A DNA stretch of 64,000 nt from Escherichia coli (GTDB lineage Bacteria; Pseudomonadota; Gammaproteobacteria; Enterobacterales; Enterobacteriaceae): NCBI RefSeq assembly GCF_003334385.1, contig NZ_QOWN01000003.1; one strand, 5' to 3'. The position numbers were made by a program. Every line of letters begins with the position of its first letter. Within the stretch, counting starts at the first letter, position 1. Shown in pieces: positions 44,101 to 47,100 of the stretch.

Positions 44101-47100
44101 TTGATCGACATAGTGTATGACATGCCTGCAACAAATTGTCCGTACTGTGCCAGCCACTGGCTAACCAGATAAAACGTTGCCATTGAGATATAGCCATATA
44201 AGGTATAACTGGCTAAATCGATAATTGAACAGCGATGTTCCGTAGAGCTGGTGGTTTTCTTTATGACAGGTAAGCGACGACCCGGATGGGGTGGGAACGT
44301 ACAACGGTATAAAAACAGAGCGTTAATAAACATAATGCCTGCAGCAATCATAAAGGACCAACCGAACCACAGTTCAGCCCACACTAACAGGCTAATGATT
44401 AGCGGTAATAAAAATTGTCCGCTGGAAACAAATGCTTTAATTAAAATATTGGCTGTCCCAGGTGAGCGTGGAAAAGCTTCCATCAAACTGGGATAAGTGC
44501 CTGCATCGAGAAAACTGTTTGCCATTCCCGCCAGAAAGCCAAAAACATAAGCGATAATGATGTTATTGGTCTGCAGGATGCCAAAAAAGAAGGCCATATA
44601 GCAGCACATCCCGAGCATGATAAAAGGGCGGCGACCAAAGCGATCGGATAATAATCCTGCAAAAAGCAAGACACTTAATCGACCAATGCCCAGCGATGAG
44701 ATAACTATCGAGACACCCGCGGCATTAGTCTGCCAAAGTGTCTCCAGCGAGGCCATATTCAGGCTCATCAAAAGGACGCCCATACCATGCACCAGGTAAT
44801 TAAAATACAACCCAAGTGCGGTAGGGAAATAGGGATTTTTCATAGGTTCTACTTAGCAAAGGTGCTTTAAAAAGTGAAGCGATGTTGTGTCAGCATCCGT
44901 TCATTATTGTTGTAACAACGACAATTCCTTTCTGTGGAAAAATTAACAAAGCCGCTCCAGATCGTGTGCATATAATTCAGCAGCTACCGATTGATAGATC
45001 TTCCAGTCAATAAAATTGCCATCAGGGTAGACTCGTTGAAATGCGGTTAAGTCGGGGAAAAAACGCATGGTGTTGTTGCCGATGCGGTTATTTATTTTCT
45101 CTATGATGGCATGAAGATGTTTTTTTCTTTGCTGACGCATAGCCAACAGTTGCTCGACTACACGATCAGGAATGGCACACTTGCCATTTTCCCACTGACG
45201 CCAGCTTTCACTGTCACCGGTCTGGGCAATCCAGGTCGCGCATTCATCAATAGTCATGGCAAAAATATGGCGGAGTGCCTGGAGTTCATAAGCGTTCATC
45301 GTGTAATGGCTGCATGAAATAAACAATAAAATATAAATAACATTATCAGCCTGCTGACGGCTTGAAGAGAGTCACAGTATCTTGTGCAACATTATTGGAA
45401 AGAGTGAGGGGCGAGGTAGCGAAGCGGAAAAATGTTAAAAAAAAGCCCATCGTGGGAGATGGGCAAAGACTACACACAGCAATTCGTTGTTTCACTCAGG
45501 GGATTTCCATGCTTATAAATCAATATGTTGATTTATAACCGTGAGCTAATAGTAGGCATACGGACTTTTTGCGTCGATCAGATTCGTCTCATTAGTTTAA
45601 AAACTGTAAAGAATTTGCGACAGGTACTACCAGCTGAATGGCGGTAAGCAGGAAAATATGGGGAAGAGCAAGCAAATATCAATTAGCGGTGGTTAACAAT
45701 CAGGCGGCAGAGCCGCCTGATGAGAAATTACTTATTCGGTTTCTCGATTTCGCCAAGTTCTTCGAGAATTTCTTCCGGTTGGTCCGTCGGCGGCGGGACT
45801 TCTTCCACCCACGCGGCAAACAGACGCCAGGAAACGGCTAACAGAACCGGACCAATAAACAGACCGATCATCCCGAAAGCAATCAAACCACCAATAACGC
45901 CAGAGAGAATCAGGATCAGCGGTAAATCGGCACCCATGCGAATTAACATTGGGCGGATGACGTTATCCAGCGTGCCAACCACACCGCTCCACACTAACAA
46001 TACCGTTCCCCAGGTGGTATCGCCAGTCCAGTAGAGCCAGATAATCGCCGGAATCAGTACCGGCAACGGGCCAAGCTGGACAAGGCAGGAGAGGATCATT
46101 AACACCGTTAGCAACGTTGCATAAGGTACGCCGGATACGGCGAGGCCGATACCGCCAAGCACTGCCTGTACTAACGCCGTCACCACCACACCCAGCGCCA
46201 CCGCGCGGATAGCCTGTGCCGCCAGCAGCACGGCGGCATCTCCGCGAACGCCTGCCAGACGGGTTGCAAAATGGCGAATGCCTTGTGCCACCTGTTCACC
46301 GCGCCAGTACAGCAGGGCACTGAAGAGAAGCATCAGCGCACAATGCACCATAAAGCGCCCGATATGCGCCGCCTGCCCAACGAACCAGGTGGTGGTGGTG
46401 CCAATATAAGGGCGGACTTTCGCCATGATCGCCGTCCCCCCCATATCCAGCAAGTTGTGCCAGCCTGCATACAGCTTCGCGCCAATCACCGGAATGGTAT
46501 TAAGCCACGCCAGATCGGGTAACGTCATGTCACCGCTGGAAATGGCTTTAATTAGCGGGCCGCTGCCGTCGACGATACTGTTAACCAGCAAAGCAATAGG
46601 GATGATAAACACCATCACTAATAACAGCGTCATCACCAGAACGGCGAGAGAGCGGCGGCCAAACATGATCTTTTGCAAACGTAACAATACCGGCCAGGTG
46701 GCGATAACCACCGTACCGGCCCATGCAAAGCCGAGAATAAAGGGTTGAACAATCCACAGACATGCCACAATCATGATGGCTAAAAACAGCACCGAAAGCA
46801 GAATTTGTGCGACATCCCTGGGCTGACGAACATTTACCATAACTACTTTTCACCTTTTTTGTGCGTCAAATCGTCGACGCGACGTGAACACGCGAAACTC
46901 ACCTGCATAATGATGAGCAATTTCAGCGGTTTTTAACAGGCCGATTCTGCCCTTAATTCTGATGGGCGTGTTAGAAAAAAATGTGGTACAACAACTCAGG
47001 CAACACGCAAACGATTTACTCGTCGTATTTCAAGTTGCATGTGCTGCGGCTACGTTCGTTCACCCCAGTCACTTACTATTGTAAGCTCCTGGAGTTCACT

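What the first reader, a model, noticed from the sequence alone, without database searches (positions are those of the whole stretch)
45437..45542. RprA small RNA between ydiL and ydiK
A roughly 105-nt stretch matches the RprA sRNA and ends in a GC-rich hairpin with a U run. The region just upstream (45543-45600) should carry its RcsB-dependent promoter.
Basis: partly seen in the sequence, partly recalled or inferred. Interest (0 to 1): 0.35.

Follow-up and report, generated by a model that had tools for sequence, protein, structure and literature searches.

The report
Known small RNA gene rprA

Summary
Window 45437-45542 on the minus strand is the canonical rprA gene (b4431). The Rfam RprA model matches over its full length at 118.5 bits, against a threshold of 70. 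The whole ydiK-rprA-ydiL intergenic region is 100% identical to E. coli K-12 MG1655. The locus is present in 5424 of 5426 complete E. coli genomes.

The predicted parts are all present:
- A terminator hairpin at 45445-45464 followed by eight U.
- A -10 (TACTAT) and a -35 (TCGACG) hexamer.
- A perfect RcsB box, TGAGACGAATCTGA, at 45578-45591 (-49 to -36). This is the same 14 bases that were crystallised with RcsB.

RprA nt 33-62 is complementary to the upstream arm of the rpoS leader hairpin. That fits the established Hfq-dependent mechanism that activates RpoS translation. In 115 other Enterobacterales genomes, 111 keep an RcsB box upstream of the conserved 3' core, and the hairpins show compensatory changes.

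Verdict: observation confirmed, interpretation supported, already known, low interest.

One side observation may be worth following. The RprA 3' core plus a terminator also occurs, without an RcsB box, in many phage genomes. It usually lies about 0.5 kb downstream of a CI-like repressor gene. About 640 extra copies occur in E. coli genomes. I found no curated RNA family and no paper for these copies.

The parts
45437..45542 (-). rprA gene, a 106-nt primary transcript. RprA nt n corresponds to window position 45543-n.
   Evidence: Rfam RF00034 at 118.5 bits over the full model. 100% identical to K-12 b4431. Annotated as rprA in RefSeq genomes.
45578..45591 (-). RcsB box TGAGACGAATCTGA, at -49 to -36 from the transcription start
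   Evidence: Exact match to TN(G/A)GAN4TC(T/C)NA. Same 14 bases as the duplex crystallised with RcsB (PMC7913699). A box of this consensus is present upstream of the RprA core in 111 of 115 other genomes, against about 0.02 expected per 160 nt.
45572..45577 (-). -35-like hexamer TCGACG (4 of 6 matches to TTGACA), 17 bp upstream of the -10
   Evidence: Read from the sequence. Too weak for the generic promoter scan, which did not list it. A weak -35 is expected for an activator-dependent promoter.
45549..45554 (-). -10 hexamer TACTAT, at -12 to -7
   Evidence: Read from the sequence. CTACTAT is conserved in Enterobacteriaceae homologues.
45513..45538 (-). 5' stem-loop of RprA (nt 5-15 paired with nt 20-30)
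   Evidence: MFE and centroid fold. 4 of 9 pairs in the lower helix show changes on both sides among 49 sequences.
45481..45510 (-). Central pairing region (RprA nt 33-62), complementary to rpoS leader -118..-93
   Evidence: Restricted duplex of -22.2 kcal/mol, including the perfect 8-mer AACGAAUU paired with AAUUCGUU. In the leader's own predicted fold, that leader segment pairs with -18..+8 around the start codon. RprA nt 31-69 is the experimentally validated pairing region for narP (PMC9262595).
45437..45483 (-). Last 47 nt, which is the processed form RprAproc. It contains the conserved core TTGCTGTGTGTAGTCTTTGCC at 45462-45482.
   Evidence: The processed form is defined as the last 47 nt in PMC9262595. 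The core is a single exact match in the window, with 0 expected by chance. The 19-mer occurs in at least 120 species genomes across Enterobacterales.
45437..45464 (-). Intrinsic terminator: hairpin at 45445-45464 plus eight U at 45437-45444
   Evidence: Terminator scan. 99.7% of cells are paired, and 2 pairs show compensatory changes.
45728..46840 (-). ydiK, the upstream neighbour on the same strand
   Evidence: ORF list and RefSeq annotation.
44943..45299 (-). ydiL, the downstream neighbour on the same strand
   Evidence: RefSeq annotation mapped onto the window.

Best explanation
This is the chromosomal rprA gene of a K-12-like E. coli. Under envelope stress, phosphorylated RcsB binds as a dimer to the box at -49..-36 and activates a weak sigma-70 promoter. 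Transcription starts at window 45542 and ends at the hairpin and U-run at 45437-45464, giving a 106-nt Hfq-binding small RNA. The central region of RprA (nt 33-62) pairs with the upstream arm of the inhibitory hairpin in the rpoS leader. This frees the ribosome-binding site and raises RpoS synthesis. The same region and the conserved 3' part also regulate other mRNAs (csgD, ydaM, hdeD, narP, fepA; ricI in Salmonella). RNase E processing leaves a stable 47-nt 3' fragment. Shown here: the gene's identity, its promoter elements, the terminator, the complementarity to rpoS, and the conservation. Taken from the literature and not tested here: RcsB activation in vivo, dependence on Hfq, the processing step, and the target list.
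For: The Rfam RprA model matches over its full length at 118.5 bits, against a gathering score of 70. The locus is present and annotated as rprA in 5424 of 5426 complete E. coli genomes. The terminator is present. A perfect RcsB box lies at -49..-36 and is identical to the crystallised operator. An RcsB box is kept upstream of the RprA core in 111 of 115 genomes from many Enterobacterales genera, against about 0.02 expected. The proposed structure is 92.6% paired, with 7 pairs changed on both sides, and 0 of 500 shuffles reach that. RprA nt 33-62 is complementary to rpoS -118..-93, and in the predicted leader fold that segment pairs with the start-codon region. Papers read here describe Rcs control, activation of RpoS, further targets and the 47-nt processed form.
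Against: Nothing contradicts the assignment. Some individual tests are weak. Single-sequence folding is only z = -2.5. The energy of the RprA-rpoS duplex does not stand out from shuffled RprA when the whole 567-nt leader is scanned: 9 of 100 shuffles do as well. The -35 and -10 hexamers are too weak for the generic promoter scan to list them. The small hairpin at nt 60-74 never varies in the alignment, so covariation says nothing about it. No expression data can be obtained with these tools.
Confidence: 0.97

Rival explanations
1. The match is one of the phage-type RprA-like elements (3' core plus terminator only) rather than the canonical Rcs-controlled gene.
For: Such elements exist and share the exact 21-22 nt core with rprA.
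Against: Phage copies score only 40-63 bits on the Rfam model, and only 9 of 121 viral-contig copies have an RcsB-consensus match within 160 nt upstream. The window copy scores 118.5 bits over the full model and has both the 5' stem-loop and the RcsB box. It sits between ydiK and ydiL, as in K-12. No phage genes flank it.
Confidence: 0.01
2. The RNA is not an independent gene but the 3' untranslated tail or a read-through product of ydiK.
For: ydiK is on the same strand, 185 nt upstream. The hairpin just after its stop codon (about 45699-45721) has no U-run, so read-through is conceivable. A promoter-like site also lies at 45682..45653.
Against: A complete promoter, with RcsB box, -35 and -10, is correctly spaced from the annotated 5' end. 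The spacing from box to core is conserved across genera in which the upstream gene differs. The reference annotation gives rprA its own gene.
Confidence: 0.02
3. The region encodes a small protein, and the RNA similarity is secondary.
For: A 49-codon GTG ORF at 45346..45495 (-) starts inside rprA.
Against: The ORF runs through the terminator into sequence that is not conserved between genera. Conservation follows the RNA structure and the core rather than a reading frame. No annotation lists a coding gene there.
Confidence: 0.005

Closest known systems
RprA of E. coli K-12 (b4431; Rfam RF00034)
   Same: Everything that could be compared: the 106-nt sequence, the promoter with its RcsB box, the terminator and the flanking genes are identical.
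   Different: Nothing within the locus. The 64-kb window as a whole differs from MG1655 at 13 single bases, none of them in the ydiK-ydiL intergenic region.
DsrA and ArcZ, the other Hfq-dependent activators of rpoS translation
   Same: The same mode of action: pairing with the upstream arm of the rpoS leader hairpin frees the ribosome-binding site (PMC3783183 abstract; the complementarity is seen here).
   Different: The sequences are unrelated, the genes lie elsewhere and they respond to other signals. Only rprA carries the RcsB box. This comparison rests on the literature and not on tests made here.
Phage-borne RprA-core elements (observed here; no name or curated family found)
   Same: They carry the same 21-22 nt core, TTGCTGTGTGTAGTCTTTGCC(C), followed by a terminator hairpin and a U-run. 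This corresponds to the processed 47-nt form of RprA.
   Different: They have no 5' stem-loop and no consistent RcsB box. Their upstream sequence is unrelated, and they usually lie downstream of a CI-like repressor gene. They fall below the Rfam gathering score.

Membership tests
RprA (Rfam RF00034) | Covariance-model score at or above the gathering threshold (70 bits), over the full model | tested here: met
   118.5 bits, E = 1.6e-16, model positions 1-108 of 108.
RprA (Rfam RF00034) | Genomic position between ydiK and ydiL, same strand as both | tested here: met
   RefSeq annotation of an identical strain and of K-12; the window is colinear with MG1655.
RprA (Rfam RF00034) | Rho-independent terminator at the 3' end | tested here: met
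   7-bp GC-rich stem and eight U. Compensatory changes among homologues.
RprA (Rfam RF00034) | RcsB box next to the -35 of its promoter | tested here: met
   TGAGACGAATCTGA at -49..-36, identical to the operator crystallised with RcsB. Conserved in 111 of 115 genomes.
RprA (Rfam RF00034) | Complementarity to the upstream arm of the rpoS leader hairpin | tested here: met
   RprA nt 33-62 pairs with rpoS -118..-93 at -22.2 kcal/mol. That segment pairs with the start-codon region in the leader fold. The shuffle control over the whole leader is weak: 9 of 100 shuffles do as well.
RprA (Rfam RF00034) | Conserved 3' core, which begins the 47-nt processed form | tested here: met
   The core is present at 45462-45482 and in at least 120 species genomes. 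The processing step itself was not testable; it is defined in PMC9262595.
RprA (Rfam RF00034) | Transcript induced by the Rcs phosphorelay; binds Hfq and depends on it | not testable with these tools
   Known only from the literature.

The most novel reading that the evidence does not exclude
The last 47 nt of this gene (45437-45483) may be more than a domain of a host small RNA. It may be a module that phages copy. The same core plus a terminator sits in lytic N4-like Erwinia phages, lambdoid and other temperate phages, P1-like phage-plasmids and at least 120 viral contigs. In 81 of 109 viral-contig copies with enough upstream sequence, it lies 228-859 nt downstream of a CI-like repressor gene on the same strand. 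Lysogens could therefore make an Rcs-independent supply of the RprA seed and take over part of the RprA regulon. The presence of the sequence is shown. Expression, function and the absence of a prior description are not shown.
Probability: 0.3. Interest if true: 0.6.

Novelty: already known. Interest (0 to 1): 0.07.

Why it matters
The finding itself only confirms that the scan recognises a textbook regulator. RprA links envelope stress, sensed by the Rcs phosphorelay, to the general stress sigma factor RpoS and to decisions on biofilm formation, acid resistance, iron uptake and nitrate respiration. Nothing new follows from finding it in a K-12-like genome. The side observation would matter if it holds: phage copies of the RprA seed would be a case of phages imitating a core host small RNA, and lysogens already in hand could be used to test it.

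Tried and rejected
- A whole-length RNAduplex of RprA against the 597-nt rpoS leader gave a meaningless, loop-ridden global duplex that was no better than shuffles (24 of 100). The first attempt timed out.
- A sliding-window duplex of RprA nt 31-77 found the right leader segment, but 9 of 100 shuffles did as well. I therefore rely on the explicit complementarity and on published genetics rather than on the energy statistic.
- The generic sigma-70 scan did not list the rprA promoter, so the hexamers were read by eye from the alignment.
- The RcsB consensus is too loose to mean anything on its own. It has 4 matches in the window against 2.6 expected. Its weight comes from its position, its identity to the crystallised operator and its conservation.
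- I considered that the phage copies might be attachment sites and rejected this for the LLS type. That element is intact inside a prophage of Enterobacter wuhouensis whose own rprA is also intact (L094/L095). Copies also occur in lytic N4-like phages and in plasmids.
- For Phytobacter, the attachment-site reading remains possible.
- L086 and L095 share no wider similarity.
- Papenfort et al. 2015 (PMC4553797) is not held. One literature query was malformed, and one script failed on a file name.
- My hairpin regex undercounts terminators that have bulges, so I cite only the 12 commonest modules, which I inspected by eye.

Full report
**Observation.** The Rfam scan of the whole window gives four hits at gathering level. 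The best is RprA (RF00034) at 45435-45542 on the minus strand, at 118.5 bits against a threshold of 70. It has E = 1.6e-16 and covers model positions 1-108 of 108. The terminator scan finds a 7-bp stem with 5 G-C pairs at 45464..45445, followed by eight T. On its own the 106-nt RNA folds at -25.8 kcal/mol with z = -2.5 against shuffles, forming a long 5' stem-loop and the terminator.

**Identity.**
- Window 45300-45750 is found in 5424 of 5426 complete E. coli genomes, where the features under the match are rprA and ydiK.
- In an identical strain and in K-12 MG1655, the gene order is ydiJ / ydiK - rprA - ydiL - ydiM.
- The alignment of window 45300-45740 to MG1655 is 100% identical.
- The whole window is the reverse complement of MG1655 1751914-1815913, with 13 single-base differences. 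On this mapping b4431 (1770372-1770477) falls exactly on 45437-45542.

**Promoter.** The following is read on the minus strand, with +1 at 45542.
- The -10 hexamer is TACTAT (45554..45549).
- The -35 hexamer is TCGACG (45577..45572), at a spacing of 17 bp.
- Immediately upstream is TGAGACGAATCTGA (45591..45578), at -49 to -36.
- This is an exact match to the RcsB homodimer box TN(G/A)GAN4TC(T/C)NA.
- The consensus alone is weak evidence, with 4 matches in the window against 2.6 expected.
- However, the 14 bases are identical to those in the Salmonella rprA promoter duplex (-53 to -33) that was co-crystallised with RcsB. The E. coli sequence differs from that duplex by one flanking base (PMC7913699).

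**Conservation.**
- The 19-mer GCTGTGTGTAGTCTTTGCC from the 3' half occurs in at least 120 species-representative genomes. The genomes span Escherichia, Salmonella relatives, Klebsiella relatives, Pantoea, Erwinia, Serratia, Yersinia, Dickeya, Pectobacterium, Proteus, Providencia, Photorhabdus, Xenorhabdus, Hafnia, Edwardsiella and Arsenophonus.
- Of the 115 loci with enough flank, 111 have an RcsB-consensus box within 160 nt upstream. The modal distance is 111-112 nt, as in E. coli. The background rate in the same loci is 0.02 per 160 nt.
- In an alignment of 49 distinct sequences from Enterobacteriaceae, Erwiniaceae and neighbours, the structure of 5' stem-loop plus terminator is 92.6% paired. 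Seven pairs are changed on both sides, and 0 of 500 shuffles reach the observed values.
- The small hairpin at nt 60-74 never varies, so covariation is silent on it.
- Because the loci were fetched by exact match to the 19-mer, its invariance within this set is by construction.

**Mechanism.**
- RprA nt 33-62 (window 45481-45510) forms a -22.2 kcal/mol duplex with rpoS leader positions -118 to -93. The duplex includes the perfect 8-mer AACGAAUU paired with AAUUCGUU.
- In the predicted fold of the leader, positions -120 to -94 pair with -18 to +8, which covers the start codon and the bases just upstream of it.
- This reproduces in silico the published anti-antisense activation of RpoS translation.
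- The energy statistic over the whole leader is not significant, so the claim rests on published genetics.
- The literature read here describes RprA as strongly Rcs-controlled and Hfq-dependent.
  - It activates RpoS and RicI.
  - It represses csgD, ydaM, hdeD, narP and fepA.
  - It coexists with a processed form made of its last 47 nt.
- Those 47 nt are window 45437-45483, and they begin one base before the conserved core.

**Comparison and novelty.** Every family-defining feature that can be tested from sequence is met. Expression, Hfq binding and Rcs induction cannot be tested here. This is the reference gene itself and is already known.

**Side observation: where the RprA core occurs in phages.** A search for homologues turned up copies of the RprA core that are not rprA. 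A BLAST search of the 106-nt RNA against phage genomes gave 17 records that match only nt 59-106. A search against plasmids gave phage-plasmid-sized replicons that match nt 52-106.
- In the N4-like Erwinia phages Ea9-2 and Gutmeister, the core lies between the thymidylate synthase gene and the next gene: 5 nt after the stop codon in Ea9-2, about 70 nt after it in Gutmeister.
- In the lambdoid phage LLS, it lies about 420 nt after the repressor gene.
- In vB_EcoM-606R2, it lies near the immunity region.
- In an Enterobacter plasmid, it lies near the P1 genes lpa and pacA.

**Side observation: what the phage copies look like.**
- Eight of the nine copies examined keep TTGCTGTGTGTAGTCTTTGCCC exactly, while the terminator and upstream sequence differ. 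The ninth, the Citrobacter MAG locus L086, was itself fetched by exact match to the core, so it is not an independent case.
- They score 40-63 bits on the RprA model, below gathering.
- No Rfam family reaches gathering at the RprA-core element on 12 representative viral loci; the only hit was a tRNA elsewhere in one locus.
- At least 120 IMG/VR contigs hold the exact 21-mer, in about 36 different upstream contexts. Only 9 of 121 have an RcsB-consensus match.

**Side observation: association with the repressor gene.**
- In 81 of 109 loci, a CI-like repressor ORF lies on the same strand and ends 228-859 nt upstream, with a median of 505 nt.
- Six of the seven upstream ORFs submitted matched repressor or regulator families phrog_4 or phrog_8.

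**Side observation: is the core conserved?**
- I drew a sample that did not depend on the core, using a downstream phage protein (phrog_6784). In it, 46 of 54 loci carry the core: 36 exactly and 10 with one mismatch.
- The flanks and loops vary in this sample, even at about 75% protein identity.
- The 12 commonest modules fold as a terminator hairpin followed by a U-run.

**Side observation: prevalence, attachment sites and prior reports.**
- Complete E. coli genomes hold 6065 places for RprA nt 57-106 in 5424 genomes, which is about 640 extra copies. The 606R2-type element is in 158 of these genomes.
- The LLS-type element is not an attachment site, because it is intact in a prophage of a strain whose own rprA is also intact.
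- In Phytobacter massiliensis, a prophage remnant sits between rprA and an exact 69-nt repeat of the rprA 3' end, so there the gene may serve as an integration site.
- Full-text searches found no paper describing such phage elements. The library is incomplete, however, and the key 2015 paper on RprA seeds is not held.

**Verdict.** The finding is correct and ordinary. Interest is low and the gene is already known. The phage copies are recorded as a lead, not as a result about this window.

Noticed in passing
L126, L134 (Erwinia N4-like phages), L127, L128 (E. coli temperate phages), L129, L131, L132 (phage-plasmids), L135-L254 (IMG/VR contigs): The RprA 3' core TTGCTGTGTGTAGTCTTTGCC plus a terminator hairpin and a U-run occurs in many phage genomes. 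These copies lack the rprA 5' part and lack a consistent RcsB box. They score 40-63 bits on the Rfam RprA model, and no Rfam family reaches gathering at them. Full-text searches found no paper describing them.
   Followed up: partly
L135-L254; representatives L148, L137, L138, L144, L136, L159, L143, L154: In 81 of 109 viral contigs, the RprA-like core lies 228-859 nt (median 505) downstream of a CI-like repressor gene (phrog_4 or phrog_8) on the same strand. This suggests expression in lysogens, possibly as the 3' end of the repressor transcript.
   Followed up: partly
L255-L308: In phage loci fetched through a downstream protein (phrog_6784) rather than through the core, 46 of 54 carry the core: 36 exactly and 10 with one mismatch. 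Upstream sequence and terminator loops vary. This points to selection on the core itself.
   Followed up: partly
E. coli complete genomes: There are about 640 places matching RprA nt 57-106 beyond the one canonical copy per genome, with up to 3 per genome and 27 on plasmids. The 606R2-type element is in 158 of 5426 genomes and the LLS-type in 4. RefSeq annotates no RNA at these places.
   Followed up: partly
L074 and L075 (Phytobacter massiliensis, adjacent on one contig): An exact 69-nt repeat of the rprA 3' end lies about 8 kb downstream of the intact gene, with a tape-measure gene fragment between them. A further 34-nt partial copy lies beyond. This looks like a prophage remnant integrated at the rprA 3' end.
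   Followed up: partly
L128:2250-2500, and Klebsiella phage hits H50-H74: The GC-rich sequence upstream of the RprA-like core in phage LLS (it contains GTTGTGGTAATGCGGCTCTGCGCACG) also occurs in many Klebsiella phages that lack the core, often near the genome ends. It is a separate, unidentified phage element.
   Followed up: no
window 51130-51143: A second perfect RcsB-consensus match, TGAGATTATTCTTA, overlaps the annotated 5' end of the small RNA gene rydB (K-12 annotation 51134-51201 on the plus strand; Rfam hit 51146-51206). Two more matches lie at 28666-28679 and 58670-58683. Four matches against 2.6 expected is compatible with chance.
   Followed up: no
window 16638-16762, 20603-20761, 51146-51206: Three other Rfam hits reach gathering level: the Phe leader (the pheM leader of pheST), STnc540 and rydB. 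The Phe leader and rydB coincide with annotated K-12 features; STnc540 has no counterpart in the K-12 annotation retrieved.
   Followed up: no
window 45699-45721 and 45653-45682 (minus strand): A 10-bp GC-rich hairpin without a U-run lies 7 nt after the ydiK stop codon. A promoter-like site (TTGATA, 16-18 nt spacer, CATATT or TATTTT) lies between ydiK and the rprA promoter. Read-through or a second start upstream of rprA is conceivable.
   Followed up: no
whole window: The window is the reverse complement of E. coli K-12 MG1655 1751914-1815913, with 13 single-base differences and no indels. None of the differences falls in the ydiK-ydiL intergenic region.
   Followed up: yes
L005, L007, L019-L021, L029, L041 and other non-Enterobacteriaceae loci: Outside Enterobacteriaceae and Erwiniaceae, only the 3' core and the terminator of RprA are recognisable. 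The 5' part differs in sequence. If promoter geometry is assumed constant, predicted RNA lengths range from 76 to 150 nt. The two Edwardsiella loci lack a consensus RcsB box within 160 nt.
   Followed up: no
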